Positions 6,378 to 45,782 of a DNA stretch of 53,560 bases are shown in pieces. Location: positions 1-53,560 of the IMG/VR virus record IMGVR_UViG_3300033182_000038, one strand, 5' to 3'. This DNA is from a virus. Lineage: Duplodnaviria > Caudoviricetes. Every line of letters begins with the position of its first letter. Position 1 is the stretch's first letter. The notes beneath the pieces are model-generated. The model did no database searches. It saw only the letters and a program-made list of their open reading frames with translations, and was not told where the DNA came from. The position numbers were made by a program, and so were the translations under genes.

Positions 6378-7373
6378 TTAGAACAAGATGTCTTGATGCT
6401 CAACTGCCCAGTTCGTAAACGCTTGCGTTGAAGCCAACTCAGGTTTCTTGCGAGCCGCATACGATACGGACAGAACACTAAACTCTGGCGGCATGCGCTT
6501 GGCATAAGTACAAACACGCTCAAAGTTATTCTCAGTTGCTCGCTCTGCAATCGCACCGGACAGTGCATACAAAGTGGCAGGGTCAGTAGGAACCTCAGCA
6601 GTAGTCGGGTTGAGGATGATGTTGTCTGGGTTAGGTAGCTTGCGGTAAATCTGTATAAAGCCACGGAACTCAGCCGCCGCACCCTCACCTACTGCACCCT
6701 TGAAGCACTCGAACTCTGTTTCAACAGGGACAGTACCAAGCACAGCACTCACACCTTCGTCCCATGAACGAGGGCTAGGGTTAGAGTCACGCTGAGGGTC
6801 GAAGTCATGCAGTAGTGCAGGACGGAAGCGGATAAACGACACCACCTCTGGCTTAACACCGTTGTCGATAGCCCATGCACACCAGTCGTCGAGGTGTGTT
6901 TCTAACTCGATCACAGTTTCACGGTTACGCAAGTGACTAAGCACTCGGTTAGCACCGGCACGGTCAGACTGTCTGTTACCAGTACTGATGACCTGCCACC
7001 CCTTCTTGAGCGGAGTACCGTGGAGGTTACGAGCCTGTTGAATGTTAGCCAGTACCTTCTGCAAGTCGTTGTTCGCTTGGTTGCGGTCGTCGAATAGCAG
7101 GATACCCTCGTCAGGAATATCAGTACGATCTTCAGCAGGGAACCAGTCGGGCAGTTTGTACTCAAGCATCTTAGCCCCCTCGGATGGGTACAAGATACCG
7201 AAGTCCTCTACCAACATGGTCGGCATGTGCTTCTCGATGAAGCCTACACCCAACTCCTTAGCGACTTGCTGAACGATGGAAGTCTTACCACCACCTGGAC
7301 TACCCTCGATAGAAACAGGGCGCTTGATAGGAAACAGTGCTTTAAGGGTTTGTTTAACGAGTTCTGCTCTCAT
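6378..7373 (-). CDS. MoxR-type AAA+ ATPase
   Basis: Walker A GSPGGGKT, Walker B ILLFDD, STGNR, LRNR arginine finger, SPRSW sensor. Confidence 0.9.
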   Translation of the reverse strand: MRAELVKQTLKALFPIKRPVSIEGSPGGGKTSIVQQVAKELGVGFIEKHMPTMLVEDFGILYPSEGAKMLEYKLPDWFPAEDRTDIPDEGILLFDDRNQANNDLQKVLANIQQARNLHGTPLKKGWQVISTGNRQSDRAGANRVLSHLRNRETVIELETHLDDWCAWAIDNGVKPEVVSFIRFRPALLHDFDPQRDSNPSPRSWDEGVSAVLGTVPVETEFECFKGAVGEGAAAEFRGFIQIYRKLPNPDNIILNPTTAEVPTDPATLYALSGAIAERATENNFERVCTYAKRMPPEFSVLSVSYAARKKPELASTQAFTNWAVEHQDILF

Positions 7374-7561
7374 TGGTTTTCTCCTTTGTAGAGTTTGTGG
7401 TCAGGGCCATAAGACACGACAGTTCCCTGCCGTTGTTCTCTAGCGATCTTGGCATCGCGTTTCTCCCTGAAGTACAGAGCCTCACCGTTATCACCCTTAA
7501 CGATGGCTCCACCTTTACCGTGCCGAAGCACAAACAGTTTCAAAGCCGTTCTCATATTCAC
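7370..7561 (-). CDS. Hypothetical protein
   Basis: Overlap-coupled ORF with RBS. Confidence 0.7.
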   Translation of the reverse strand: MNMRTALKLFVLRHGKGGAIVKGDNGEALYFREKRDAKIAREQRQGTVVSYGPDHKLYKGENQ

Positions 7562-7725
7562 TCCTTGTTGTCAATAAACAGACATTCATGTTGATGACGC
7601 ACACCATATGCGTCGGTGTAAGACTCACCGCACCCTGCTAACCATTCGAGTATGGCTACCACCATGATGGTGCTGAATGCAGTGACGATAAGGATGCTTA
7701 CTAGCACCTCAATAAGTTTGCGCAT
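7558..7725 (-). CDS. Small membrane protein
   Basis: Start MRKLIEVL at 7725 behind GGAGG; one hydrophobic segment. Confidence 0.65.
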   Translation of the reverse strand: MRKLIEVLVSILIVTAFSTIMVVAILEWLAGCGESYTDAYGVRHQHECLFIDNKE

Positions 7726-7726
7726 G

Positions 7727-7861
7727 TCATCCTCCCGCCAAAAAGCTGACAGTAAGACCACCGATAGCACCGAGCAGAGAGCCTATGACAATCCACACGA
7801 TGTACCGCACAACTACCGGATACTGGTAGACGCGCCAAGCGAAGTTTTTTAACCAATTCAT
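7727..7861 (-). CDS. Small membrane protein (44 aa, not in ORF track)
   Basis: MNWLKNFAWRVYQYPVVVRYIVWIVIGSLLGAIGGLTVSFLAGG; ATGA overlap, AGGAGG RBS, fills the gap exactly. Confidence 0.65.
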   Translation of the reverse strand: MNWLKNFAWRVYQYPVVVRYIVWIVIGSLLGAIGGLTVSFLAGG

Positions 7862-8058
7862 CGGACTAATCCTCCTTTGTTGTTAAGACCCTTAAGGTCA
7901 GACAGGTCAGTGATGACCACATAGTTCGACTTGTGCATAGGGGCGATGGTATGCACCACCTCCCTAGCCTTAGCCTCACCACACTTTAGGCAAGTGCCAT
8001 AGCCCAACGACAAGCGTTGGGTAGGCACAGCCTCTGATCTACAAACTGTACACAGCAT
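7858..8058 (-). CDS. DksA/TraR-type C4 zinc-finger protein
   Basis: CTVC..VPTQRL..GYGTCLKC; TGATG coupling. Confidence 0.65.
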   Translation of the reverse strand: MLCTVCRSEAVPTQRLSLGYGTCLKCGEAKAREVVHTIAPMHKSNYVVITDLSDLKGLNNKGGLVR

Positions 8059-8420
8059 CAGTCGATTACCTCCCATCCTCGTGGGTTGTCTGTTACTACA
8101 CTCAAGCGGTTAGCGACTAGGCTTCGATAACCACCCTCAGCAAGTAGCATCATGTGATGCGTAGATAACTTTACAGTATCTGTGTGAGGGTGAGCCTGTG
8201 AACGGTGCTTGCTAGTACTGACTGAATACCTATCGGAGTTCTCCCACCAGTACTTGCCGCACTTGATAAACATAGGGTAGTGAGTGCCGTAACTATACAC
8301 GACATAGCGATCACCTCCCTTGCTATCGGTGACACTAACACCGTACAAGTTACTGCCCTGAAAGGGCTTGCACTGCTGAACATAGCTACGACAGTTCTTG
8401 TTGGCTACACGGTCAGTCAT
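8058..8420 (-). CDS. Hypothetical phage protein
   Basis: YVVYSYG...YSVSTSKH motif typical of phage early genes; coupled to its neighbours. Confidence 0.75.
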   Translation of the reverse strand: MTDRVANKNCRSYVQQCKPFQGSNLYGVSVTDSKGGDRYVVYSYGTHYPMFIKCGKYWWENSDRYSVSTSKHRSQAHPHTDTVKLSTHHMMLLAEGGYRSLVANRLSVVTDNPRGWEVID

Positions 8421-8638
8421 AGCGGCATCTCCATAGCAGAGTCATCACCGTCATAAAACCAGTCAAGATAGTTATGTATGCCGTTAGAGAAAGCGTTAGA
8501 GCCACCGAATATTGGCTGACTACCGGACTCCCTAGCGACGAAGTCGGTACATGTATCGTTGATAATCTCTACCAAGTCAGACAACTCGTTGTCATCGTCA
8601 GAGTAGTAGGCTTCAAAGAAAAGGTTTGCGTTTAACAT
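8417..8638 (-). CDS. Small acidic protein
   Basis: GGAG RBS; D/E-rich, 73 aa. Confidence 0.65.
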   Translation of the reverse strand: MLNANLFFEAYYSDDDNELSDLVEIINDTCTDFVARESGSQPIFGGSNAFSNGIHNYLDWFYDGDDSAMEMPL

Positions 8639-8663
8639 ACTTCATTGCTCCATATGTAAAGTT

Positions 8664-8692
8664 AAAATAAAGGGGGCTACAGTGTAGCCCCC
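8664..8692 (-). terminator. Intrinsic terminator
   Basis: GGGGGCTAC-act-GTAGCCCCC followed by TTTATTTT on the minus strand. Confidence 0.75.
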
Positions 8693-8698
8693 ATCGGG

Positions 8699-9064
8699 TT
8701 AGATCAGGATTGCAGTAGCCTTAGCTACAGTGTGTTTAACAGGGCTTGCGATAGTCATCTTAGGCTTGCCCCACTTACCAACACCGATGGTCGGTACATA
8801 GCCATCTTTGATAGCCTTGAGTACCTTAGTCAACGGCAACGCCTTACTATCCTTTGCGATAGTCTGGTTTACTTCAGGGATATAGAAGTCCCAACGGTTA
8901 AGCGACAACTTGTTAGCACTTGCATAGTCAATGATGTTTGACAAAGCAAGCTCAGCATCGTCAGCGTTGTACTTACCAGTACCGTCGCGGCTAGCAACAA
9001 GCTCCACAAGGTTAGTGTTAGGGTTTACACGGGCATTGAAAGTACCTTCATAGTTCTTAGCCAT
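8699..9064 (-). CDS. Early protein, paralogue A
   Basis: AAGGAG RBS; similar to 10132..10482. Confidence 0.85.
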   Translation of the reverse strand: MAKNYEGTFNARVNPNTNLVELVASRDGTGKYNADDAELALSNIIDYASANKLSLNRWDFYIPEVNQTIAKDSKALPLTKVLKAIKDGYVPTIGVGKWGKPKMTIASPVKHTVAKATAILI

Positions 9065-13203: not shown

Positions 13204-13380
13204 ATGCACAGTAAGCCTTACACGATCTACTCGAACAATCCGAAAATGGACACGAGTGGTCTTGCAAAAAAGCCGAAAGAGTACAAAGCTGGCGGTGTCG
13301 TATACTCTGACAAGAATGACGACAAGACGAAGGTTCCTATGGATGAGATGCCATACCTTGAGAAAGAGGGCAAACTCTGA
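13204..13380 (+). CDS. Small protein (58 aa, not in ORF track) with YKAGGVV motif
   Basis: MHSKPYTIYSNNPKMDTSGLAKKPKEYKAGGVVYSDK...; GGAG RBS; TGATG coupling to the portal gene. Confidence 0.75.
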   Translation: MHSKPYTIYSNNPKMDTSGLAKKPKEYKAGGVVYSDKNDDKTKVPMDEMPYLEKEGKL

Positions 13381-15413
13381 TGCTTCAAGTAATCAGCAAC
13401 GACGATCTGCGTAGACAAGAGCGCGAGCTTGTCGATAAAGAACTCGCTGCCCGTCAGAACCAGTCTGTGGTTCTGGGACTGTCTTCGTATCTACGCGAGT
13501 GCTGGGATGCTGCGAAGCAAGCAAAGAAACCTATCGAATATGTAATGCTTCGTGCGATGCGCCAGCGCAACGGCGAGTACGAGGCTGACAAACTTAAAGC
13601 TATTAAGTCGCAGGGCGGCTCTGAAATCTACATGATGATTACAGAGGTAAAGTGTCGTGCGGCTGAGAGCTGGCTGCGTGATATTTTGCTGGACACCGGC
13701 GCTCCCCCGTGGGATTTGCAGCCTACCCCTATCCCTGATATGTCGCCTGAGCAGACCAAGGAAATCCAAGATGCGTTTGCCCAGCAGGTAATTCGTATCG
13801 TTGAGGAAGTAGGTAAGGCTCCTAGCCCTGATGAAATGGCGGAACTCAAAGAGATGGTCGGCCAAGACTATCGCTTTAAGGTTTTGCAGTCTGCGCAGAA
13901 TCGTGCGGACAAGATGAAGTTGAAGATCAGCGACCAGTTTGCTCAAGGCGGCTGGGGTGAAGCGTTCAACGACTTCGTTACTGACTTGGTTACATATCCT
14001 GCTGCGTTCGTGAAAGGGCCGATTGTCCGTCGCCAGCGTAAGCTAGGCTGGGCAAAGGGCGCTGATGGAAAGACCATTGTTGAAGCGGATGAAATTATTG
14101 CTCCTGAATATGAGCGAGTGGATCCCTTCCGTATCTACCCTGAACCGGGTATTTCTAACCTTAATGCTGGGTATATCTTTGAGCATCATCCTCTTAGTCG
14201 TAGTGAGCTTGCTGATCTTATCGGCGTTCCGGGATACGACGATGATGCTATTCGCAAAGTTCTGGAGATCGGTAACGGGCAGAGCTGGATCAGCGAAGAC
14301 GTTGAGTTCGAGAAAGACGAGCAGGAACGTAAGTTCCACACCCAGTCGCGCCCGACCGAAGTTTTTGACGCGCTAGAGTTCTGGGGTAAGGTCAGCGGAA
14401 AGATGCTGATCGAGTGGGGTTTGACTGAAGACGATGTCGAAGACCCTGCCCGTGAATACGACGCTAACGTATGGATCGTGGGTAACTACGTTATTAAAGC
14501 GGTTCTTAACTACGACCCGCTAGGTGAGAAACCATATGCTAAAACATCTATGTTCAAAGTGCCCGGAGCTTTCTGGGGAAAAGGTATTCCAGAAATTATC
14601 GAAGACATACAGAACGTATGTAACGCTGCTGCGCGTGCGCTGGTTAACAACATGGGCATCGCTTCTGGCCCTCAAGTCGAGGTTAACCTTGAGCGTATCC
14701 CGCCGAATGAAGACATTACTCAGCTCCACCCGTGGAAGATTTGGCAAGTAACGAACGATCCGTTTGGTTCTAGCTCACCTGCGGTGCGCTTCACTCAGCC
14801 AGACGACAACGCTACTACCCTGCTGGGTGTCTACGAGAAATTTGCCAAGTTGGCTGATGACCATTCCGGTATCCCGTCTTATGTGTCGGGCGACATTAGC
14901 GTAGGCGGAGCAGGGCGCACAGCGTCTGGCCTGTCGATGCTGATGGGTTCTGCTGGTAAAGGGATCCGCCAAGTTGTTATGCACATCGATGCTGATGTGA
15001 TTAAGCCCATCGTCCAGCGCCAGTTTGTTTACAACATGCGCTACGACGAGGACGAATCGATTAAGGGTGACGTTGAGATCATGCCACGCGGTGCGGTCAA
15101 CCTCGCGGTTAAAGAGACCGTCAACGTACGCCGACTCGAATTCCTTAACGCAACCGCCAACGAGATCGATATGGAACTCATTGGTAAGGATGGCCGTGCA
15201 GCGATTCTTCGTGAAGTGGCTAAAGGTTTGCAGATGCCTGTGGATGACATCGTTCCGTCTCGGGAGAAAGAAGGGTTCACGGCGAGGATGGCTGTTCGAG
15301 CACAAGCTGCTCAGCAACAGTCTGCTCCGACGCCTACACAACCTGACGGTTCCCCCAAAGGTGGAATGGAAGGCAACACAGTGAGTAACCGTGTGACAGG
15401 GGGCGCAGGATGA
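13380..15413 (+). CDS. Portal protein (podovirus-type)
   Basis: 677 aa after TerL; FWGKGIPE, GRTASGLSMLM motifs. Confidence 0.9.
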   Translation: MLQVISNDDLRRQERELVDKELAARQNQSVVLGLSSYLRECWDAAKQAKKPIEYVMLRAMRQRNGEYEADKLKAIKSQGGSEIYMMITEVKCRAAESWLRDILLDTGAPPWDLQPTPIPDMSPEQTKEIQDAFAQQVIRIVEEVGKAPSPDEMAELKEMVGQDYRFKVLQSAQNRADKMKLKISDQFAQGGWGEAFNDFVTDLVTYPAAFVKGPIVRRQRKLGWAKGADGKTIVEADEIIAPEYERVDPFRIYPEPGISNLNAGYIFEHHPLSRSELADLIGVPGYDDDAIRKVLEIGNGQSWISEDVEFEKDEQERKFHTQSRPTEVFDALEFWGKVSGKMLIEWGLTEDDVEDPAREYDANVWIVGNYVIKAVLNYDPLGEKPYAKTSMFKVPGAFWGKGIPEIIEDIQNVCNAAARALVNNMGIASGPQVEVNLERIPPNEDITQLHPWKIWQVTNDPFGSSSPAVRFTQPDDNATTLLGVYEKFAKLADDHSGIPSYVSGDISVGGAGRTASGLSMLMGSAGKGIRQVVMHIDADVIKPIVQRQFVYNMRYDEDESIKGDVEIMPRGAVNLAVKETVNVRRLEFLNATANEIDMELIGKDGRAAILREVAKGLQMPVDDIVPSREKEGFTARMAVRAQAAQQQSAPTPTQPDGSPKGGMEGNTVSNRVTGGAG

Positions 15414-37751: not shown

Positions 37752-40700
37752 ATGGCTAAAGCCGGTCTTTCGTTCGCTAACCCGATGCTGGGAGCGATGG
37801 ATGTAAACATACCTTCAACTCCGATGGAGATCATGGAGGCGAACAAAGACTTTGGTCTCCAGTCGCTTGGCCCCACTATGGCTGATGCAGCCGTATACGG
37901 TCGTGCTCTGACTGAGAACGCTAGGTTTACACTACCTGACATGGACTCTCCGCAGGCTCCCCAAGGGCCACAGGTTAAGTACAGTCCATCTACCAAAAAG
38001 ATGTTTGTCAATGGTGCGTTGTTCGATGTCGAGAACGCAACGGCAGCACTTGAGTCCGAGCAGTACCTAGGCACAGAGCCTAAAGCTGCGCCTACCGATG
38101 TAGCTAACGACTGGATGACCCTGAGTCCGCAGGACTACGGCGCGTACATTAAGACAATCAAAGACCCATCAATCGGTCGCTTGATGTCTAAGAACTGGGA
38201 CATCGGTGTTAGCAACCTGAAACTTCTTGGTGGTCGTGGCCTACAGTTCCTCGGCTTTGAAGAAACTGGACAGGGTATTGTCGACCGGGCCGCAAAAGAA
38301 CTTGAGTACAACGAACCGTACCAGCGTGAGTTCACCAATATCGATTCAGTAGAGGGTGGTGTCGACTGGTTTGTCGCTAACCTTATGCAGCAAGGCCCGA
38401 ACCTACTTGAGTCTATTGCAGTAGCACTGGCGGGTTTCTTTGCCGGTACTACTCAGACTGGTAGCCCACTGGTCGGTGGTGGTACTGCCCTCGCTGCCCT
38501 TGCAGGTAAAGCTGAGTTCAAACGCCAAGTACTTGCTGCGGCACGCAAGCGCATGGCGGGCGAAGCCCTTAACCAAGCTGAGAAACGTGTGCTCCAGTCG
38601 GCTGCGGCTATGTCTGCGGTGGCTGCTAACAGCTATGCGATGGGTGTATCTGATATTTATGGTGAGTTGCGTGACACTGGCTCAGATGCTGGTGATGTCA
38701 GCTCTCGTTTGACTGCCCTTCTCGGTGGTATTCCTTACGCTGCTCTTGAGTCCATCCCTGAATTCATGATCGGCAAGCGTTTGCTTGGCGGTAAGATGAT
38801 CGGCGGTGCGAAAGGAGGTGCGTTGCGCCGTGGCATGACCGGTCTCGGTGTCGCTGGTACTGCTGAAGGTCTGACTGAAGCAGGTCAAGAAGGCTTACTC
38901 ATGGGTGCTGGTGCTATTGAGAACCAGTACGACTACTCTGACGAAGCCCTGAACCGTTTGGTCAACTCGTTCGCCGCAGGCTTTGCAGTCGGTGGCCCAA
39001 TGGGTGGTGTTGCCAACCTGCGTAAGGGTAAAGAATCTAACCTGCTTGACTCCGGCAGTGGCCCGAAACTTAGCGACAGCCGTGAGGTTGGCCCATACAC
39101 TGGCCCACGAGAAGGTGAGTTACTTGGCCCTGAAATGCCACCTGCTGCTCCTACTCCGCCGCTGCTCAGCGCACCGGTTCCGGATGTGGCAGTTGGTGAA
39201 CAGCCTAACTATGTGGTTGGCCCAGACGGAACAACCCGTCCTGCTACTGCACTTGACACCCCTGTAACTATCAATGCTCCTACCGTTCCGGGTCAGGCAG
39301 CAGGACAGCAAGGCGTGCTTAACGTGTTTGGCGGTCAGCCAATGACAGCAGAAGAACTTGCCACGCGTTTGAACCCGCAGTTGGCCGTAAGCGAACAGCT
39401 AAGCGGTGAACCTGCGCAGCAAGAAGTGGTCGGCCCACAGCAACCATCCCCACAGATGGAACTGCCGCTCGACTTTCAAGGTGCAAACGTACAGTCACAA
39501 GTTGCACAGACTCAGGCTCAAGGTCAGCCGATTAACGCGATGCAGGCGGCAATGCTTGCCGCTACGGAGAAGCGTGCTCAAGCTGCTGAGAAAGCAGCAC
39601 AGGAAGCAGAGGCCGCACGAGCGCGTGCCGAGCAGGAGCGTCAGGCTGAGCGTGAGAAATCCCAGCTACTTGAGCGTCAGTACCGCGAGATGGAACTGTC
39701 GATGGCGGAACAAGACCGCCGTGAAGCAGCCGCTCGCCCACTGGTACAGCAACAAGAATTACCTACCGTTCCGGCACAGCCTACTCCGCCTAAGCAACTC
39801 GATCTTTTCCGTGGTCAAGTCAAACTGCCACGCATGTCTAAGGCTCAGCAGGCAGCACAGCGTAAAGCACTGCGCCAGCAAGAGCGTGATGCACAGGCAG
39901 CACAAACTGCGGCTGAGCAGGCAGCATTACCACTGAGCGCACGAGTTACCCCTGCTGAGGCGTACCGTGAAGCTGGTCAGCTACCTCTCTTTACACAGCG
40001 TGGTGAGCCTTCGGTTGCCGCTCTAAGAAGTGCGGCTCCGACTACCCCTGTTGCAGCACCTGTAGTTGAAGAAGGTGCGACGCAAGCGCCTCCAACCGGC
40101 AGACAGGTTAATGCTCTGACTGCTGCGGTGGCTCGTGCTGAAGCGGCAGCTAAGGCTGCTGAGGAGGCAACCAAGAAAGCAGAGGAGGCAGCAAATGCCG
40201 TTCAAGAGCGAAGCACAGCGCAAGTGGATGTACGCGAACAACCCCAAGCTGGCACGGAAGTTCGAGGCAGAGACACCACAGAACAGCCAGTTACCACAGC
40301 GAAAGGCCAAACCCTCAGGAGAGGCAAAGCGCCGCAGGGAGCGGGAACTGTACGCCAAGAGGAAGCGGCAGCGACCGTTCGGGAAGCTGGTGACAGACAA
40401 GATAACGTACGGACAGATCAGGAAAAAGTCGATCAGCAAGTAGACACAGGCTTCGCTACACCAGTTGAAGCATGGGAAGAGATGGTCGATGTACTGCCTA
40501 ACGGCAGACCTGTTGTCGAGTTCGACAACCTACCTGATGCAGCTAAAGCTGAGTGGGAAGCGATTTACAAACGTGGCGAAGTTAACGGCTACGCTGCTGA
40601 AAACCTCATGTCTAAGTACGAAGACGACATGAACGCAGTCGACCGTTTGCACCAAGCAATCGCTACGGCTGAAAGCACCAGTGACATGAACGAGTTTGAG

Positions 40701-43700
40701 AACGCGATTCTCACCGTCATCGAACTGGCGTTTATCAACACCGACTCTAACAACGCCAAGACCCTGTCTACCTTCGGGTACTCAGTACGCGAGCGTGCTG
40801 AAGCCTTTATGAACAACACCACGTTTACAGGTGCGCAGTGGGAAATCATTGACGACGCTTTTGTAGGCGAGGTCAATGCGTTCGGCAAGATTGAGGGTGC
40901 GTACAAGTCTGGTGCTAACAAGGGTCAGGCCAAAGCGTGGATGAACTTCGCTGCACAGCGCGGGTTACTAGATTCCATCAAGGCCACCATTACCAATCCG
41001 CCTAAGTGGTACACCGATACTCTGGCTGCAACCAAAGGTGAACGTATTGGTACGACTGAGCAGGAAGCTGCTAAGGAAACCTTAACCTCAGCAGAGCAGA
41101 AGAACGCAGCTAAGCTGGCTGCGGAGTCTATTGCTGACCGCATCAAACGCATTGCCACTGGTGTGGATGTTATCCGCAACAAGGCAAACAGTAAGTTCGT
41201 CAAAGCTATCGAGGCTCTGTACGAAACCGCTGACAAGAACTACATGACTGACCGAGGTAAGATCGGTGAGTACTTCGACAAGGACGGTAAGCTGCGTCTA
41301 CGCAAGCGCGTGGACACTGGCACATTTACCCCTGTCAATAAAGAACTGACTGCTGAGCAGCTTAAGCAGCTTGAAGCCGATGAGCGTGCTGCAATGCAGG
41401 CTCGCAAGGACGCTGAGAAAGCTGAAGCTGAGGCAGAAGCTGAGGCAGTTAAACGCCTCAAGCGTGGTCAGAAAGAAACCGTTGTCCAAGAGGACACGTT
41501 CGACGACACCGTTTACGACGACGAGTACCAAGACATTATCGACTCGTTTGATAACTCGACTGACTCTAACGAGGGTATGTTCTACCGTGATGATGGATCA
41601 GTCATCAACACCACTGTTGGTATTGGTAAAGTCAAGCTGTTGGCTAAACAGTTCCTCGCTAAGCTGAAAGTCAAACCTAATCTAACTGTCGTCCGCAACA
41701 TGGCTGAACTGGCTGCTAAGTACCCAGAACTTTACGCTCGTGCGGCTAAGTCTGTTAAGAACTTTGAAGCAATGGCGGGTCGTGCTGTCGGCTTCTCTGT
41801 AGGCGATCAGGTGATTGTGTTCGCTGACCGTGTACGCACCGAAGATCAGCTTAAGTTTGTACTGGCTCACGAAGCACTAGGCCACTTCGGTCTGAAGTCT
41901 ATCCTGTCTCCGGCGCAGTTGAAGGCTGTCCTCAACGACATCTACAACAGCGATCCGTTTGTCCGTGCGCGTGTTGACCGCATGATGGCTACGGAAGGCA
42001 TGAGTCAGATGGAGGCTACCGAAGAAGTGCTAGCTGACATGGCTGGTGCTATCGACGCATCTACCATCGTGAAGATTTGGAACTTCATTAAGTCTGCTTT
42101 GAACAAGCTCGGCATGAAGTTCGGTGATGAGATGGCCCGCTACTGGGTAGGTCAAGCTCGTAGAAACATACGCACAGGTCATGGCGTTGTCAGTGCGCAG
42201 GTACTTGCGCGTAACCTTGACCGCCTAGCTAAGGAAACTAAATTCGGTCGCTTCTCACTGGAGCAAGACTCGGCTCGCCTAGCTAGTTCAGCGTTCGCCG
42301 CTAACGCGTTCAACAACAACTCGTTCGGTGTTCGTGGGTTCAAAGCCTTCTTCGAGCGCATTGCTGACGCTGACTTCACCTCTATTAGAGGCGGCATCAA
42401 TGACGTGGTATCTGCACTTTCTGAAACTGTCCAGACTCTGGATAACATGGCGACCCGAAGCGAGGGTCTTCAGAAGGTGTTTGAAATCTTCCAGAAGCAA
42501 GCGGCTCGTACTAAACGCTTCCTAACTAAGTACGAAGGTTTGACCACGTTCTCGCACACACCTAGCTGGACTGGTGGCCCAACTCAGGAAGAACTCCAGC
42601 AAGCTGGTGAACTCCTAGCCTACGCAGCACTGCTCAAGCGTGGTCAGTTGACCGACAAGATGATGAAGGACATGGGCGACCTGTTCACAATCGATCAGTA
42701 CGGCAACCCGCAACCTAACCCTGCCGTTGTGCAGCGCGTTATGGACGCAGGTAAAGTAAACCGTCAGGAGTTTGAAAAGGGCTTTACTGTTACTAACTCA
42801 TTGGGTGAGGAGATTCAGTACAAACCTGAGTTCGAGATCACTGACCGTATCTGGAAGGTGTTTGAGGAGCAGCGTAACGCTGTGAACCAATCGGCTCTTG
42901 ACGTACTGGAGGCTAACTTCTATGCCGCACACGAGCGTAAGCAGGCTGCGGTCGAAGGCTTCAAGGACTTTACCGGCACTGGTGGTGCGTTCACCGATGT
43001 AGATATTCAGGTACTCCAGCGAATCCTCAAAGAGTACGGCGACCTGTACACTGAAAACTCTGTCGACCAAGGCGGAAGCATCAAGATGAATCCGGAGTCT
43101 ATGAAAAAGGCTAACCGATTCCTTGCGGCTATCAACCGTGCTTTGTGGAACAAAGAGAAAGTCAAAGACTGGCAAGGCGGCACTGATACTGCGGCTGAGT
43201 TCCAAGACGAAAAGTACAAGGACATCATCAGCGCATTAGAGCGTTTGAATGGTATAGGTCTATCTGAAAATAAAGCGTATGAGGTTACTAACACCATCGC
43301 TAACATGTTCATGATGGACTCGCAGATTCAATCTGCACAGTTCTACGCCAAGCGTACCATCATGGGTGCATACGTTCCGTTCGTACGCCGTGGTAAGTAC
43401 CAAGTGGTGATGAAGGCATACGACAAAGACGGTAAGGCAGTCCGCTTGAACGGCGCATACCAGAGTTCAATGCCTTACTTCCAAGATGATTCTCGCTCCG
43501 GTGCGGACAGTCTAGTTTCAGAACTAGATGAGGCGTTCGGTGGAGACCGTGAGTTCGTGGTACTCAACTCTGACAATGAGGAGGTAACTGTAACCTTCCG
43601 TGCAGAGCGTTCGCGTACATTAGAAACCGCTCAAGTATCTAACAGCGTCGACTTCAACGAGTTCATCAACACAGTCAACCGCCTGAAGATCAGCATTACC

Positions 43701-45782
43701 CCGCAGGAACGCCACACAATCGTGGAAAACCTGACCAACATTAACTCTCGTGCTCGTAAGAACCTTGAGCGTAGTGGCTCTCCGGGCTGGGATAAGGATG
43801 TAATCCGTGCTACTTCTGAGTTCCTTGAGACTCAAGGTCACGTTGCAGGTAAAGCGTTCTACCGCCACAAGCTGAACGACATCATGGTCGACAAGAACTT
43901 GTGGCGCGGTAATCCAGAGAAACTACGCCGCTTGAAGAAGGCATACGAAGACGCTAAGAAGGGCGGCAACGAAGCACAGATCAAACAGGCTAAGACCGAG
44001 TACGACCGTTACGCATATATGTATATGCACATGGCGGACGCAGGTCAGGGTAAGACTGTTGAAATCAACGGTAAGAAAGAACCTACGTTGGGACGCGGCA
44101 ATGTGTACCTCGATCAGGCTAACCGTTTGCTCGATTGGTACTCTGACTCAGGCAACATCGTCGACAGTACTGAAGACTTGCTCTCCAGTGGTATCGGCTC
44201 GAAGCTGAAGATGTGGGCAGTGGTCATGCAGTTGGGTGGTTCAGTAGCCACGGCTGCTATCAACCTTGTGTCGTTGGTAACACACACCATCCCATACCTC
44301 TCGACCTATAACCCTAAGCGTGGTTTCGGTGGCGGCTTCGGTGCTTCTAAGACTGCGGCTAACGTATATCGTGCGGCGGCTAACCTTAAGAATCCTAAGC
44401 TGTCAGATGTTAAGCACCTCGATGAAGTCGTTGCTAGTAAAGAACTCCAACAGAAGTATGGTCTATCGCAAGCGGAAGCGCAGTTCCTGCGTGACGCCAC
44501 GGCTGAGGGTGTACTTCAGGCGGCACAGTTCAACGCCCTAGTAGGTACGGCACGCGGCGGCGTCCGTAATAACAACACCGCAGGATTTATCCAAGCGTGG
44601 ATGAGCATGTTCTCATACACCGAGCAAATGAACCGTCGCGTAACGGCACTGGCTGCGTACCGTATGGAGCGTGAGCGTTCACTGGCGGCAGGATTGTCCG
44701 AGCAGGCGGCACTGGAGCGTGCTGCTGAAGAAGCATACAAGGCTGTGAACAAATCGCAGGGTGAGTACGCTATGTACAACCGCCCAGAGATGGCTCGCGG
44801 TAACGTACTCCAATACATCTTTATGTATAAGCAGTTCGTAATCATCAGCGTCCAGTTGATGAAGGGTCTGAGTCCGAAGGGCCGCGTGATGTTCCTCGGT
44901 ATGCTTTTCCTGATGTCAGGTATGAAGGGTATCCCGTTCGCTGACGACATCATGGACTTGATCGATACGCTTGCTCAGATGTTCGGCATCAAGATGGGTA
45001 GCTTCGAGAAAGAAATTGCAGGGTTCGTTGACGAGATCGCACCGGGCATGTCACCGGTTGTCATGCGTGGTCTGATGGATAGATACACTGGTATGACAGT
45101 GTCCACGCGCCTCGGTTTCGGTGACTTGATTCCTCTGTCTGGTGCGTTCAGAGCGGGTGCTGACCCTGCTCGTGAGTTGGAAAACTTTGCAGGCCCAGTA
45201 TGGTCAGGCATGGCAGGACTGGTAGGTTTGGGTACTCAGCTTGGTCGTTATGGCGCAGAAGCTATCGGCTTGCGTGAGGATGTCACATCGCTCAGTTCAA
45301 TCATGCGTAACCAACCTATCGCGGCAGTCCGTAATATGGCAGATGGCCTGACCTACTTGAACGACGGTTCGATCACCAATGCTCAGGGTAAGTTAGTATC
45401 ACCTGAGGTTTCAAACGTAGTGGCACTTGGTCGTATGTTCGGCTTCTACCCTGCGGTAGCTACGAGAGATAACGACGTAGTTCGTATGAGTAAGTTTGCA
45501 GGAGATCACGCCAACGCAATTCGTAAGGAGTTCACTGATGCCTACGTTAAGGCGGCGGTATCGAACGACAGCGAAGAAATGATGCGGGTTAAGATGCTCG
45601 TGAAAGAGTGGAACATGGACAACCGTGGTACTCCATACGAGTACAGAACTTGGTTCCAGACTGCTCCGAGAGCGGCGCGTGAAGCTAAGAAGCCAACCCT
45701 TCTCCGCTATAAGAAGTCGGCCCCTACCAGTATGCGTAAGGAGATCGACGACTTAATGCGGATATACGGTGTGGAATACTGA
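37752..45782 (+). CDS. Giant ejection/polyvalent protein (2676 aa)
   Basis: N-terminal G/A membrane helices (EGLTEAGQE), zincin-like LAHEALGHFGL, PLxRFG-like YVPFVRRGKY, C-terminal YAMYNRP..QYIFMYKQF. Confidence 0.8.
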   Translation: MAKAGLSFANPMLGAMDVNIPSTPMEIMEANKDFGLQSLGPTMADAAVYGRALTENARFTLPDMDSPQAPQGPQVKYSPSTKKMFVNGALFDVENATAALESEQYLGTEPKAAPTDVANDWMTLSPQDYGAYIKTIKDPSIGRLMSKNWDIGVSNLKLLGGRGLQFLGFEETGQGIVDRAAKELEYNEPYQREFTNIDSVEGGVDWFVANLMQQGPNLLESIAVALAGFFAGTTQTGSPLVGGGTALAALAGKAEFKRQVLAAARKRMAGEALNQAEKRVLQSAAAMSAVAANSYAMGVSDIYGELRDTGSDAGDVSSRLTALLGGIPYAALESIPEFMIGKRLLGGKMIGGAKGGALRRGMTGLGVAGTAEGLTEAGQEGLLMGAGAIENQYDYSDEALNRLVNSFAAGFAVGGPMGGVANLRKGKESNLLDSGSGPKLSDSREVGPYTGPREGELLGPEMPPAAPTPPLLSAPVPDVAVGEQPNYVVGPDGTTRPATALDTPVTINAPTVPGQAAGQQGVLNVFGGQPMTAEELATRLNPQLAVSEQLSGEPAQQEVVGPQQPSPQMELPLDFQGANVQSQVAQTQAQGQPINAMQAAMLAATEKRAQAAEKAAQEAEAARARAEQERQAEREKSQLLERQYREMELSMAEQDRREAAARPLVQQQELPTVPAQPTPPKQLDLFRGQVKLPRMSKAQQAAQRKALRQQERDAQAAQTAAEQAALPLSARVTPAEAYREAGQLPLFTQRGEPSVAALRSAAPTTPVAAPVVEEGATQAPPTGRQVNALTAAVARAEAAAKAAEEATKKAEEAANAVQERSTAQVDVREQPQAGTEVRGRDTTEQPVTTAKGQTLRRGKAPQGAGTVRQEEAAATVREAGDRQDNVRTDQEKVDQQVDTGFATPVEAWEEMVDVLPNGRPVVEFDNLPDAAKAEWEAIYKRGEVNGYAAENLMSKYEDDMNAVDRLHQAIATAESTSDMNEFENAILTVIELAFINTDSNNAKTLSTFGYSVRERAEAFMNNTTFTGAQWEIIDDAFVGEVNAFGKIEGAYKSGANKGQAKAWMNFAAQRGLLDSIKATITNPPKWYTDTLAATKGERIGTTEQEAAKETLTSAEQKNAAKLAAESIADRIKRIATGVDVIRNKANSKFVKAIEALYETADKNYMTDRGKIGEYFDKDGKLRLRKRVDTGTFTPVNKELTAEQLKQLEADERAAMQARKDAEKAEAEAEAEAVKRLKRGQKETVVQEDTFDDTVYDDEYQDIIDSFDNSTDSNEGMFYRDDGSVINTTVGIGKVKLLAKQFLAKLKVKPNLTVVRNMAELAAKYPELYARAAKSVKNFEAMAGRAVGFSVGDQVIVFADRVRTEDQLKFVLAHEALGHFGLKSILSPAQLKAVLNDIYNSDPFVRARVDRMMATEGMSQMEATEEVLADMAGAIDASTIVKIWNFIKSALNKLGMKFGDEMARYWVGQARRNIRTGHGVVSAQVLARNLDRLAKETKFGRFSLEQDSARLASSAFAANAFNNNSFGVRGFKAFFERIADADFTSIRGGINDVVSALSETVQTLDNMATRSEGLQKVFEIFQKQAARTKRFLTKYEGLTTFSHTPSWTGGPTQEELQQAGELLAYAALLKRGQLTDKMMKDMGDLFTIDQYGNPQPNPAVVQRVMDAGKVNRQEFEKGFTVTNSLGEEIQYKPEFEITDRIWKVFEEQRNAVNQSALDVLEANFYAAHERKQAAVEGFKDFTGTGGAFTDVDIQVLQRILKEYGDLYTENSVDQGGSIKMNPESMKKANRFLAAINRALWNKEKVKDWQGGTDTAAEFQDEKYKDIISALERLNGIGLSENKAYEVTNTIANMFMMDSQIQSAQFYAKRTIMGAYVPFVRRGKYQVVMKAYDKDGKAVRLNGAYQSSMPYFQDDSRSGADSLVSELDEAFGGDREFVVLNSDNEEVTVTFRAERSRTLETAQVSNSVDFNEFINTVNRLKISITPQERHTIVENLTNINSRARKNLERSGSPGWDKDVIRATSEFLETQGHVAGKAFYRHKLNDIMVDKNLWRGNPEKLRRLKKAYEDAKKGGNEAQIKQAKTEYDRYAYMYMHMADAGQGKTVEINGKKEPTLGRGNVYLDQANRLLDWYSDSGNIVDSTEDLLSSGIGSKLKMWAVVMQLGGSVATAAINLVSLVTHTIPYLSTYNPKRGFGGGFGASKTAANVYRAAANLKNPKLSDVKHLDEVVASKELQQKYGLSQAEAQFLRDATAEGVLQAAQFNALVGTARGGVRNNNTAGFIQAWMSMFSYTEQMNRRVTALAAYRMERERSLAAGLSEQAALERAAEEAYKAVNKSQGEYAMYNRPEMARGNVLQYIFMYKQFVIISVQLMKGLSPKGRVMFLGMLFLMSGMKGIPFADDIMDLIDTLAQMFGIKMGSFEKEIAGFVDEIAPGMSPVVMRGLMDRYTGMTVSTRLGFGDLIPLSGAFRAGADPARELENFAGPVWSGMAGLVGLGTQLGRYGAEAIGLREDVTSLSSIMRNQPIAAVRNMADGLTYLNDGSITNAQGKLVSPEVSNVVALGRMFGFYPAVATRDNDVVRMSKFAGDHANAIRKEFTDAYVKAAVSNDSEEMMRVKMLVKEWNMDNRGTPYEYRTWFQTAPRAAREAKKPTLLRYKKSAPTSMRKEIDDLMRIYGVEY
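40195..40443 (+). CDS. Overprinted +1-frame basic protein (82 aa, MPFKSEAQRKWMYAN...)
   Basis: GAGGAGG 6 nt before the ATG; the N-terminus resembles a recurrent stand-alone small phage protein (from memory). Confidence 0.7.
   Translation: MPFKSEAQRKWMYANNPKLARKFEAETPQNSQLPQRKAKPSGEAKRRRERELYAKRKRQRPFGKLVTDKITYGQIRKKSISK

What the first reader, a model, noticed from the sequence alone, without database searches (positions are those of the whole stretch)
40182..40443. Hidden overprinted gene inside the 2676-aa ejection gene
Seen: a strong Shine-Dalgarno (GAGGAGG, 40182-40188) 6 nt before an ATG at 40195 in the +1 frame. It encodes the highly basic 82-aa MPFKSEAQRKWMYANNPKLARKFEAETPQNSQLPQRK... 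The host frame here is a low-complexity linker (NAVQERSTAQVDVREQPQAG). From memory, unverified: MPFKSxxQxxW/YxxANxPxxAxxW/F is a recurrent stand-alone small phage protein, and AVQExSTxxVxVxEQ is a recurrent motif in giant virion proteins. Inference: that motif is the shadow of a conserved, routinely unannotated nested gene, perhaps a DNA-binding core protein or a partner of the ejection protein.
Basis: partly seen in the sequence, partly recalled or inferred. Interest (0 to 1): 0.85.

Follow-up and report, generated by a model that had tools for sequence, protein, structure and literature searches.

The report
Small gene hidden inside giant gene
A small, very basic protein gene sits out of frame inside a phage's giant virion-protein gene; it is conserved, is under its own selection in many related uncultured phages, and gene callers miss it.

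Summary

**The window.** GAGGAGG (40182-40188) lies 6 nt before ATG 40195. This opens an 82-aa, pI 11 ORF in the +1 frame of the 2676-aa giant gene, a PLxRFG-domain virion protein.

**Family.** The first ~40 residues belong to a large unnamed family. A profile search found 3748 representative clusters. The module almost always sits at the extreme N-terminus.

**Unbiased tests.**
- Relatives of the giant gene were fetched by its C-terminus alone. 28 of 36 complete homologues carry the ORF in the same slot and frame.
- In the 26 of these that were scored, including the window, all have ATG or GTG and all 26 have an SD-like site. The background rate is 7.5%.
- Host third-codon positions are the most variable sites along nearly the whole gene. 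Over the nested ORF they drop to 0.23 and the periodicity switches to the nested frame.

**Other arrangements.**
- A second clade of giant genes carries the ORF nested in 39 of 80 loci. In 11 loci it is a separate gene 1-9 nt after the giant's stop.
- Five homologues that lack it hold a different small basic gene in the same slot.

**Function (inferred, not shown).** It is probably a virion or head-associated basic protein.

**Classification.** A new variant of phage gene overprinting.

The parts
40182..40188 (+). Shine-Dalgarno-like GAGGAGG, 6 nt upstream of the nested start
   Evidence: Read directly. An SD-like core at -16..-4 is present in 26 of 26 clade-A nested copies. The background is 7.5% of positions in the same genes, and the flanking bases are otherwise not conserved.
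40195..40443 (+). Nested (overprinted) gene, +1 frame. Product is 82 aa, pI 11.1, with 25 K+R and 7 D+E (P0001).
   Evidence: Homology. Selection signature.
40195..40308 (+). Conserved N-terminal module (aa 1-38): MPFKSEAQRKWMYANNPKLARKFEAETPQNSQLPQRKA. It is predicted to form two short helices (6-15, 17-26).
   Evidence: Alignments A1 and A3. AlphaFold2 pLDDT is 87-95 over residues 1-20. The module is at the N-terminus in 135 of the 150 best representatives.
40309..40440 (+). Basic, less conserved tail of the nested protein (aa 39-82). It has a predicted helix at 42-59 and shares an RPFGKLV motif with L024.
   Evidence: The selection signal here is weaker but still has nested-frame periodicity (host aa 838-864: 0.516/0.452/0.448).
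37752..45782 (+). Host gene: a 2676-aa giant virion-type protein (pI 5.5). It has an N-part (aa 1 to ~570), a variable linker, the nested-gene slot (aa 815-897) and a conserved C-part (aa ~900-2676).
   Evidence: Natural split versions L119 and L161 break between the N-part and the C-part.
40194..40241 (+). Host-frame 'shadow' peptide NAVQERSTAQVDVREQ (host aa 815-830)
   Evidence: The same shadow is seen in all 20 nested cases. It is the only BLASTP similarity between clade-A and clade-B giants.
44187..45662 (+). PLxRFG domain (NCBIfam NF032893 'tail-700') at the C-terminus of the host protein
   Evidence: 191.8 bits against a cut-off of 100, E 2e-56. E 6.3e-58. Isolates with the same domain are annotated as structural, internal virion or DarB-like proteins.

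Best explanation
The ORF 40195-40443 is a genuine, separately translated gene embedded in the +1 frame of the giant PLxRFG virion-protein gene.

**Expression (inferred from sequence).** Ribosomes start at an internal SD plus ATG on the late mRNA. They make an 82-aa, pI 11 protein.

**The module (shown).** The first ~38 residues form a two-helix module beginning MPFKS. This module is a widespread, unnamed N-terminal module of phage proteins.

**Direction of overprinting (inferred).** The small gene is the older partner. The giant gene's variable inter-domain linker reads through it in another frame. Special codon choices, such as Phe3 = TTC, keep the host frame open.

**Function (inferred, about 40-45%).** It is a virion or head-associated protein. 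The N-terminal module would anchor or target it inside the head, together with the giant ejected protein. The basic tail would contact DNA.

**Slot behaviour (shown).** The slot acts like a cassette position. A different small basic gene replaces the MPFKS gene in some relatives.

Shown: homology, conservation, dual-frame selection, and linkage with the giant gene. Not shown: translation, virion location, binding.
For: 1. **Homology.**
   - The N-terminal 42 aa hit 22 small proteins, E down to 2.6e-10.
   - The profile search gave 3748 representatives at E <= 1e-3 and 581 at E <= 1e-10.
   - The module is at the N-terminus in 135 of the 150 best.

2. **Unbiased conservation, clade A.**
   - Loci were fetched with the giant's C-terminal 577 aa only.
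   - 28 of 36 complete giants hold the ORF at aa 755-1153, always in frame +1.
   - 26 copies were scored, the window among them. Starts are 22 ATG and 4 GTG. An SD-like core is present in 26 of 26, against a 7.5% background.

3. **Unbiased conservation, clade B.** Loci were fetched with a central conserved region.
   - 39 of 80 loci hold it nested, all in frame +1 with ATG.
   - 11 of 80 hold it as a separate gene 1-9 nt after the giant's stop.

4. **Selection.** In a host-guided codon alignment of 26 giants, host position 3 is the most variable site (0.48-0.67) in every scored 27-codon window except:
   - aa 811-837 (0.446/0.359/0.228),
   - aa 838-864,
   - aa 865-891,
   - a marginal linker window at aa 595-621.

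   Nested-frame identity exceeds host-frame identity in 9 of 9 window-versus-relative pairs. Clade B shows the same periodicity: 0.333/0.225/0.416, n = 33.

5. **Dual coding costs.**
   - The host-equivalent frame is open in 46 of 46 nested copies but only 6 of 55 stand-alone copies.
   - Phe3 is TTC in 38 of 38 nested Phe codons. In stand-alone copies it is TTT 38 and TTC 17.
   - Pro2 is only CCG or CCA in nested copies.

6. **Function leads.**
   - Four of 10 long fused members carry NUDIX, SAM-lyase, Mu-F plus peptidase, or InPase domains.
   - PHROG hits on two of them are to minor head, head-morphogenesis, virion structural or DarB-like families.
   - These are domains Iyer et al. 2017 assign to virion-packaged polyvalent proteins (PMC5512222; I read passages only).
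   - Among neighbours of stand-alone copies, the most frequent annotated families are large terminase and portal.
   - Another host type is a ~400-aa ORF between the portal and a capsid-like protein.
Against: - There is no expression or proteomic evidence of any kind.
- The gene is dispensable.
  - 8 of 36 complete clade-A giants lack it, and 3 of these have no nested gene at all.
  - 0 of 5 such contigs, 3 of them rated 100% complete, hold a copy anywhere.
  - 28 of 80 clade-B loci show none within about 10 kb, and only 1 of 5 of their contigs has one elsewhere.
- The diversity statistics are not corrected for phylogeny. The 26 sequences were the giants with an HMM hit. I dropped three near-duplicates (L100, L159, L160) and the 8 giants without a hit from the count.
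- The open frame itself is unremarkable: there are 7 such +1 segments in the gene. GAGGAGG also encodes Glu-Glu in a purine-rich linker.
- Pfam and NCBIfam give nothing. phrog_1375 matches only at E 0.11.
- The tail is poorly conserved, and its last 20 residues are modelled at pLDDT 52-57.
- The functional inference is thin.
  - 6 of the 10 fused proteins examined had no Pfam domain.
  - Most neighbours had no informative PHROG.
  - One GenBank copy (P-RSP2) lies in an early region, not a head module.
Confidence: 0.8

Rival explanations
1. Relic. The small gene was swallowed when two virion genes fused. It is no longer translated, and its frame simply has not decayed yet.
For: - The giant gene exists in split form in L119 and L161, with the break at this slot.
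- T-poor basic-protein genes stay open in several frames. The nested ORF is 9.6% T against 21.7% for the giant.
- The gene is dispensable in some relatives.
Against: - Giants that share only 31-44% protein identity keep the start codon, the SD and nested-frame periodicity, with host synonymous sites suppressed.
- The same holds in a second, unrelated giant clade.
- A relic would show host-frame periodicity or none.
Confidence: 0.06
2. The selected element is the host-frame peptide (DAVQExSTxxVDVxEQ) of the giant protein. The alternative-frame ORF is a by-product.
For: - The shadow motif recurs in three giant clades and in a ~400-aa ORF.
- Pro2 codons in nested copies are restricted to those giving V or I in the host frame: 46 of 46, against about 60% in stand-alone copies. 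This suggests some host-frame constraint.
Against: - Host third positions are the least variable sites here (0.228), which is the opposite of a host-frame-driven pattern.
- The same protein exists as a stand-alone gene whose host-equivalent frame has stops: 49 of 55 copies and 6 of 7 adjacent copies.
- The nested frame is more conserved than the host frame in 9 of 9 pairs.
Confidence: 0.03
3. Recoding product. Ribosomes translating the giant gene shift into the +1 frame here. This gives a truncated N-part with a basic tail, rather than a free 82-aa protein.
For: - The slot lies at the boundary between the N-part and the C-part.
- In L119 the nested ORF lies near the 3' end of a separate N-part gene.
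Against: - No conserved slippery sequence exists. The 20 nt upstream differ among relatives except for the SD.
- The family always begins with Met-Pro-Phe at residue 1.
- ATG or GTG is kept in 26 of 26 clade-A copies scored and in all 39 nested clade-B loci.
- In sister phages it is a free-standing gene.
Confidence: 0.05
4. The conservation reflects a nucleic-acid element (an RNA structure, regulatory site or packaging signal) rather than a protein.
For: Suppressed host synonymous variation alone is also what an RNA or DNA element would give.
Against: - Variation has three-base periodicity in the nested frame.
- There is no Rfam match at E <= 1 in 39500-41000.
- The RNA folding energy is ordinary: z = 0.07, and 56 of 100 shuffles fold as well.
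- Relatives are recognisable at protein level but not at DNA level. blastn against phages found no match.
Confidence: 0.02

Closest known systems
Lambda Rz/Rz1 embedded spanin genes (recalled from general knowledge, not from a call)
   Same: A small gene lies wholly embedded in the +1 frame of a larger gene on the same strand. It has its own start and RBS. In other phages the pair also occurs as overlapped or separate genes. Here the arrangements are nested versus adjacent.
   Different: There is no sequence relation. The host gene is a 2676-aa virion protein, not a lysis protein. The nested protein is basic and soluble-looking, not a lipoprotein. Here the nested gene family is far wider than the host arrangement. 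This suggests that the host linker overprinted a pre-existing gene rather than the reverse.
Polyvalent, virion-packaged effector proteins (Iyer et al. 2017, PMC5512222, passages read) and P1 DarB-like giants
   Same: The host protein shares the PLxRFG C-terminal domain with proteins annotated as DarB-like or internal virion. Long members of the MPFKS family carry Mu-F, InPase, NUDIX and SAM-lyase domains typical of such proteins.
   Different: In the passages I read, the paper has 0 occurrences of 'PLxRFG' and only one of 'reading frame', a passage I did not see. I found no mention of this N-terminal module or of a nested gene. I did not see the paper's supplementary files, which may list more domains.
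phrog_1375 (unknown function, 70 positions)
   Same: Positions 17-67 of the profile align with residues 3-48 of the nested protein. A fused family member matches at E 7e-5.
   Different: The window protein reaches only E 0.11 and relatives reach 0.016-0.46. Membership is therefore not established. The PHROG has no annotated function.
Small head-associated phage proteins: T4 internal proteins with an N-terminal capsid-targeting sequence, SPP1 gp7 (Mu-F-like, portal-bound), and lambda gpW encoded between terminase and portal (all recalled, none tested)
   Same: The product is small. Its genes sit in the terminase-portal-scaffold region. Its N-terminal module is also prefixed to larger cargo-like proteins.
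   Different: No sequence or fold similarity was found. Foldseek gave 0 matches in PDB and the PDB profile search gave only E 0.95. Virion location is not shown.

Membership tests
MPFKS small phage protein / N-terminal module family (unnamed; defined here by alignments A1 and A3) | Motif MPF[KV]SxxQ[RK]xx[ML]Y/HxxxPxxAxx[WF] starting at residue 1 | tested here: met
   The window protein aligns from M1 with no gap. The phmmer search gave E down to 2.6e-10. The module is at the N-terminus in 135 of the 150 best representatives.
MPFKS small phage protein / N-terminal module family (unnamed; defined here by alignments A1 and A3) | Second conserved block, TP(K/x)GxKLPxxV, followed by a basic tail or a larger C-terminal domain | tested here: met
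   The window has TPQNSQLPQRK. T27, L33 and P34 are invariant or nearly invariant in A3. Small members have tails with a K+R fraction of 0.28. The window protein has 25 K+R in 82 aa.
Embedded out-of-frame phage genes (the Rz1-in-Rz kind of overprinting) | Wholly inside another gene, on the same strand, in a different frame | tested here: met
   The ORF 40195-40443 lies inside 37752-45782 at frame offset +1.
Embedded out-of-frame phage genes (the Rz1-in-Rz kind of overprinting) | Own conserved start codon and ribosome-binding site | tested here: met
   Starts are 22 ATG and 4 GTG. An SD-like core is present in 26 of 26 copies, against a 7.5% background. Clade-B copies have ATG but no SD, in A-rich low-GC contexts.
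Embedded out-of-frame phage genes (the Rz1-in-Rz kind of overprinting) | Purifying selection acting on the embedded frame | tested here: met
   Codon-position switch over host aa 811-891. Nested-frame identity exceeds host-frame identity in 9 of 9 pairs. Clade-B periodicity matches. The measures are not corrected for phylogeny.
Embedded out-of-frame phage genes (the Rz1-in-Rz kind of overprinting) | The product is demonstrably made | not testable with these tools
   No Ribo-seq or proteomics is available for this uncultured phage.
PLxRFG domain-containing proteins (NCBIfam NF032893), for the host gene | Score above the curated cut-off of the domain model | tested here: met
   191.8 bits against a cut-off of 100, over aa 2146-2637. 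Confirmed on the genome.
phrog_1375 | Significant match to the family profile | tested here: inconclusive
   E 0.11 for the window protein. E 0.016-0.46 for three relatives. E 7e-5 for one fused member.
Virion-packaged (head-internal or ejected) proteins | Physical presence in virions, or ejection into the host | not testable with these tools
   Only indirect support exists: gene context and fusion partners.

The most novel reading that the evidence does not exclude
The 38-residue MPFKS module is a general N-terminal 'ticket' that loads proteins into phage heads, to be escorted into the host with the DNA. It would serve small basic DNA-binding tails and enzymatic cargo (NUDIX, SAM-lyase, InPase, Mu-F) alike.

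The inter-domain linker of giant ejected proteins would then be an exchangeable cassette slot. There, pre-existing small escort genes from at least two unrelated families survive as overprinted genes, because the giant gene arose by fusing two genes straight through them. That would be 'reverse overprinting': the large gene is the newcomer frame.
Probability: 0.25. Interest if true: 0.85.

Novelty: new variant of a known kind. Interest (0 to 1): 0.74.

Why it matters
**Missing from annotation.** A conserved gene is absent from the annotation of a group of phages that looks abundant and partly marine. The window's portal alone has more than 5000 relatives at E <= 1e-20, some from Tara ocean data. 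None of the 10 nested products looked up exists as a called protein.

**A clean test case.** The locus offers a replicated natural case of dual coding. The same small gene occurs nested, adjacent, free or fused. The cost of overlap can therefore be read directly as codon choice and lost synonymous freedom.

**Direction of overprinting.** The evidence suggests that a giant gene can be built by fusing two genes through a third.

**A new module.** The work defines a large uncharacterised N-terminal module (3748 representative clusters). It is linked to virion-cargo domains, which gives a concrete handle on how phages load proteins into heads.

**Practical lesson.** Low-complexity linkers of giant virion proteins deserve a scan for embedded genes.

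Tried and rejected
**Family and sequence searches that gave nothing useful**
- Pfam and NCBIfam had no credible match for the 82-aa protein.
- blastn of the region against GenBank phages found no match.
- tblastn with a typical family member found only 2 isolate records. The family is mostly in uncultured phages.
- tblastn of the second nested family against phages found no match.

**Structure**
- The AlphaFold2 model had 0 Foldseek matches in PDB.
- In BFVD it matched only uncharacterised small phage proteins (best E 5.9e-3), that is, its own family.
- The PDB profile search gave only a chance-level hit at E 0.95.
- Three long fused members had no PDB relatives.
- In the protein atlas, the nearest clusters are unnamed viral small proteins (0.89). 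DUF3008 at 0.78 is a lead only.

**Complex prediction**
- The job pairing the window portal with the nested protein returned 'no answer'. It says nothing either way.

**Strict complementarity (a relative without a nested copy has a free copy elsewhere)**
- It is only partly true.
- It held for 0 of 5 clade-A contigs and 1 of 5 clade-B contigs beyond the locus.
- However, 11 of 80 clade-B loci have the adjacent copy.
- 0 of 5 records with stand-alone copies have a PLxRFG gene (positive control).

**RNA element**
- No Rfam hit, and an ordinary folding energy.

**Literature**
- Searches for 'MPFKS', 'PLxRFG' and general overlapping-gene or small-protein terms found nothing describing this gene. 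I saw listings and abstracts only.
- For PMC5512222 I read passages.
- Supplementary files were not consulted.

Full report
**Observation.** The stated features are present at the stated coordinates. GAGGAGG is at 40182-40188, followed by six bases and then ATG at 40195. The ORF runs to the stop at 40441-40443 and encodes 82 aa. It lies in the +1 frame of a 2676-aa ORF, 37752-45782. Taken alone, this is not beyond chance. The giant gene contains seven +1-frame open stretches of 82 codons or more. SD-like tetramers precede 7.5% of all positions in such genes.

**Homology.**
- tblastn against GenBank phages gave weak hits, each starting at residue 1 of the query.
- In P-RSP2, C75C1, S-CBS2 and 023Pt_psg01 these hits are small free-standing ORFs of 34-40 aa with Lys-rich tails. 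They read MPFKSEKQRK.LYAN.P..AKK. Three of the four are unannotated.
- A pattern scan of IMG/VR confirmed 492 of 600 candidate stretches.
- A search of 5.8 billion proteins with the first 42 aa gave 22 small proteins, E down to 2.6e-10.
- A profile search of 1.84 billion cluster representatives gave 3748 hits at E <= 1e-3 and 581 at E <= 1e-10.
- In the best 150, the motif is at the N-terminus in 135. In the other 15 it starts 3-40 residues in. Lengths run from 51 to 1178 aa. 79 are 110 aa or shorter and 71 are longer.
- The family has no Pfam or NCBIfam model and only a marginal PHROG match: phrog_1375 at E 0.11.

**Nested copies are common and always in the same frame.** Among the 80 best loci:
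- the ORF is embedded in a same-strand, other-frame ORF of more than 1100 codons in 12;
- it is embedded in a ~400-codon ORF in 7;
- it is the N-terminus of a 190-802-aa protein in 6;
- it is free-standing in the rest.

In all 20 embedded cases, counting the window, the offset is +1. The host frame reads [DN]A[VI]QE.ST..VDV.EQ.

**The host gene.**
- The giant protein carries the PLxRFG domain: NF032893, 191.8 bits against a cut-off of 100.
- Its isolate relatives, which match over the C-terminus only at 25-28% identity, are F116-like and other phage proteins. They are annotated as structural, internal virion or DarB-like.
- BLASTP sorts the giants into three clades.
  - Clade A: the window, L005, L010, L024 and L021, at 31-44% identity over the full length.
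  - Clade B: L008, L009, L015, L020, L064 and L068.
  - Clade C: L007 and L038.
- Between clades A and B, the only detectable similarity is the shadow of the nested gene.

**Unbiased test, clade A.** I fetched relatives with the C-terminal 577 aa only: 115 relatives, 80 kept. I then searched their six frames with an HMM of the 27-aa N-terminus.
- Of 36 loci with a complete giant ORF, 28 hold the nested ORF. It is always in frame +1, at aa 755-1153.
- Eight do not hold it.
- Seven truncated giants also hold it, as does one split giant (L119).
- In the 26 non-duplicate copies analysed, the window among them, the start is ATG in 22 and GTG in 4. I left out L100, L159 and L160 as near-duplicates.
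- An SD-like core stands at -16..-4 in 26 of 26, although the surrounding bases differ.

**Unbiased test, clade B.** I fetched relatives with a central conserved region: 217 relatives, 80 kept.
- 39 loci have the nested ORF, all in frame +1 with ATG.
- 13 have it outside the longest ORF. In 11 of these it starts 1-9 nt after the giant gene's stop codon. The other two have split giants.
- 28 have none in the locus.

Sister phages therefore keep the same gene pair either nested or adjacent. In the adjacent copies the host-equivalent frame contains stops in 6 of 7 unique sequences, and Phe3 is TTT in 6 of 7. In nested copies Phe3 is TTC in 32 of 33.

**Selection.** I made a host-protein-guided codon alignment of 34 clade-A giants and computed diversity on the 26 that carry the ORF.
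- Host third positions are the most variable sites (0.48-0.67) in every scored 27-codon window of the gene, with four exceptions.
- The exceptions are aa 811-837 (0.446/0.359/0.228), aa 838-864 (0.516/0.452/0.448), aa 865-891 (0.588/0.507/0.556), and a marginal case in the unconstrained linker at aa 595-621.
- The nested ORF spans aa 815-897. Host position 3 is nested position 2, so the periodicity has switched to the nested frame.
- No other alternative-frame ORF in the gene shows this signature.
- The window's first 45 nested codons are more conserved than the overlapping host codons in 9 of 9 comparisons, for example 0.76 against 0.60 with the closest relative.

Comparing nested with free copies shows the price of the overlap.
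- The host-equivalent frame is open in 46 of 46 nested copies and in 6 of 55 free copies.
- Pro2 uses only CCG or CCA in nested copies, which gives host V or I. Free copies use all four codons.
- Third-position diversity falls from 0.585 in free copies to 0.427 in nested copies.

These measures are not corrected for phylogeny. The 26 sequences were those with an HMM hit, so the size of the effect may be somewhat inflated.

**The slot is a cassette.**
- Of the eight complete clade-A giants without the MPFKS ORF, five (L087, L096, L104, L105, L156) hold a different 59-61-aa basic ORF at the same place and in the same frame. So does the truncated L108. The ORF reads MPLKKGSSNKVVSANV...QAVAASLSSAGRSK.
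- It has its own AAGGAG and an ATG or GTG start.
- It matches phrog_2423 at E 2e-8 to 6e-8, over its first 22 residues only.
- It is far better conserved in its own frame than in the host's: 0.84-0.96 against 0.54-0.91. Substitutions are concentrated at its third positions, for example 3/4/21.
- Three giants have neither gene.
- None of five such contigs, three of them rated complete, has an MPFKS copy anywhere (positive control).

**Origin.** Two relatives carry the giant gene in two pieces, separated by two unrelated genes.
- In L119, the N-part gene ends just after the nested ORF. The C-part corresponds to window aa 922-2675.
- In L161, the parts correspond to window aa 1-433 and aa 896-2674. 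L161 has no nested gene.

The slot is therefore the seam between two modules. The small family is vastly wider than the nested arrangement, and the host sequence over it is a variable linker that barely aligns. Few columns pass 80% occupancy at aa 676-810. I infer that the host frame is the newcomer here.

The host-equivalent frame is rarely open in free copies (6 of 55), while the other frame is usually open (43 of 55). Yet every nested copy uses the first. This points to few origins of the dual-coding cassette, followed by spread. A host-frame requirement is the alternative explanation. I could not decide between them.

**Function (inferred).**
- The product is very basic: pI 11.1.
- The model shows a confident N-terminal pair of short helices (6-15, 17-26), an extended TP..LP stretch and a basic helix (42-59). 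Mean pLDDT is 78. No fold or sequence relative of known function was found.
- Four of ten long family members carry a NUDIX, SAM-lyase, Mu-F plus peptidase, or InPase domain. PHROG matches on two of them (the Mu-F and InPase proteins) are to minor head, head-morphogenesis, virion structural or DarB-like families.
- Iyer et al. 2017 assign such domains to proteins packaged in the head and injected with the DNA (PMC5512222; passages read).
- I scanned the 76 nearest large neighbours of free copies. The commonest annotated families were large terminase (8, 2 and 1 members for three families) and portal or portal-like (5, 5 and 4). One protein can match several families, so these counts overlap.
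- The ~400-aa host ORFs sit between the portal and a capsid-like structural protein, which is the usual scaffold position.
- Together with the tight linkage to the giant virion gene, this makes a head-associated protein the best guess, at about 40-45%. The module would serve as the anchor and the tail as a DNA contact.

**Comparison and novelty.** Embedded out-of-frame genes are well known in phages. Rz1 inside Rz is the nearest analogue in architecture, including the coexistence of embedded and separate arrangements. That comparison is recalled, not tested.

The following appear to be new:
- this gene family;
- its systematic embedding in giant virion-protein genes and in a scaffold-position gene;
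- the alternative occupancy of one slot by two unrelated small genes;
- the likely direction of overprinting.

Full-text searches for the motif, for 'PLxRFG' and for general terms found no description of it. None of ten nested products exists as a called protein among about 15 billion sequences. I rate it a new variant of a known kind.

Noticed in passing
L087 6231-6407; L096 6141-; L104 6045-6227; L105 6114-; L108 ~1007-1186; L156 6102-: A second, unrelated small basic gene occupies the same +1-frame slot in giant-gene homologues that lack the MPFKS gene. It reads MPLKKGSSNKVVSANV...QAVAASLSSAGRSK, is 59-61 aa long and has pI 11.3. It has its own SD, matches phrog_2423 over its first 22 residues, and shows strong nested-frame conservation.
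   Followed up: partly
L172 14960; L174 8795; L181 15165; L188 14652; L203 14485; L205 15616 (and near-duplicates L173, L175, L179, L189, L202): In 11 clade-B loci the MPFKS gene is free-standing and starts 1-9 nt after the stop of the giant gene. Its codon choices (TTT at Phe3) close the host-equivalent frame.
   Followed up: yes
L029 1576; L056 894; L069 4613; L072 6001; L077 3885; L080 6001; L083 1895: The MPFKS gene is also embedded, again at +1, about 35-75 codons into a ~400-aa acidic ORF. That ORF lies between the portal and a capsid-like structural protein, the usual scaffold position. It shares nothing with the giants except the shadow peptide.
   Followed up: partly
L119 3-11743; L161 368-11740: These are natural split forms of the giant gene. 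An N-part gene and a C-part gene are separated by two unrelated ORFs: 330 and 637 aa in L119, 245 and 539 aa in L161. The break is at the nested-gene slot. I did not identify the inserted ORFs.
   Followed up: partly
contig behind L192 (handle G012), 41331-41471: An MPFKS-family match (E 5.6e-9) contains two in-frame TAG codons. This may hint at TAG reassignment in that phage, or at a broken copy.
   Followed up: no
L032 4835; L034 5789; L035 910: Here the small ORF is overlapped on the opposite strand by long open frames, up to 880 aa and running past the locus end in L035. I did not examine whether this is an antisense overlap or a spurious frame.
   Followed up: no
window 1-53560; portal gene 13380-15413: The window is a whole 53,560-bp virus record with direct terminal repeats, rated 100% complete. 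Its portal has more than 5000 relatives at E <= 1e-20. The 119 closest listed relatives are 76-91% identical (a further row is the window's own portal), and some come from Tara ocean data. The giant protein is only 31-44% identical among the clade-A giants compared. The giant gene is thus much less conserved than the portal.
   Followed up: no
window 40161-40167: A second GAGGAGG lies 21 nt upstream of the first, also inside the Glu/Ala-rich host linker. No in-frame start follows it at SD distance.
   Followed up: no
L015 ~7203-8705 and clade-B relatives: Clade-B giants share an invariant IHE[FM]GH[IV] stretch, which is an HExxH motif (pattern reported; invariant columns). This suggests a zincin-like peptidase domain. 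I did not test it against any family model.
   Followed up: no
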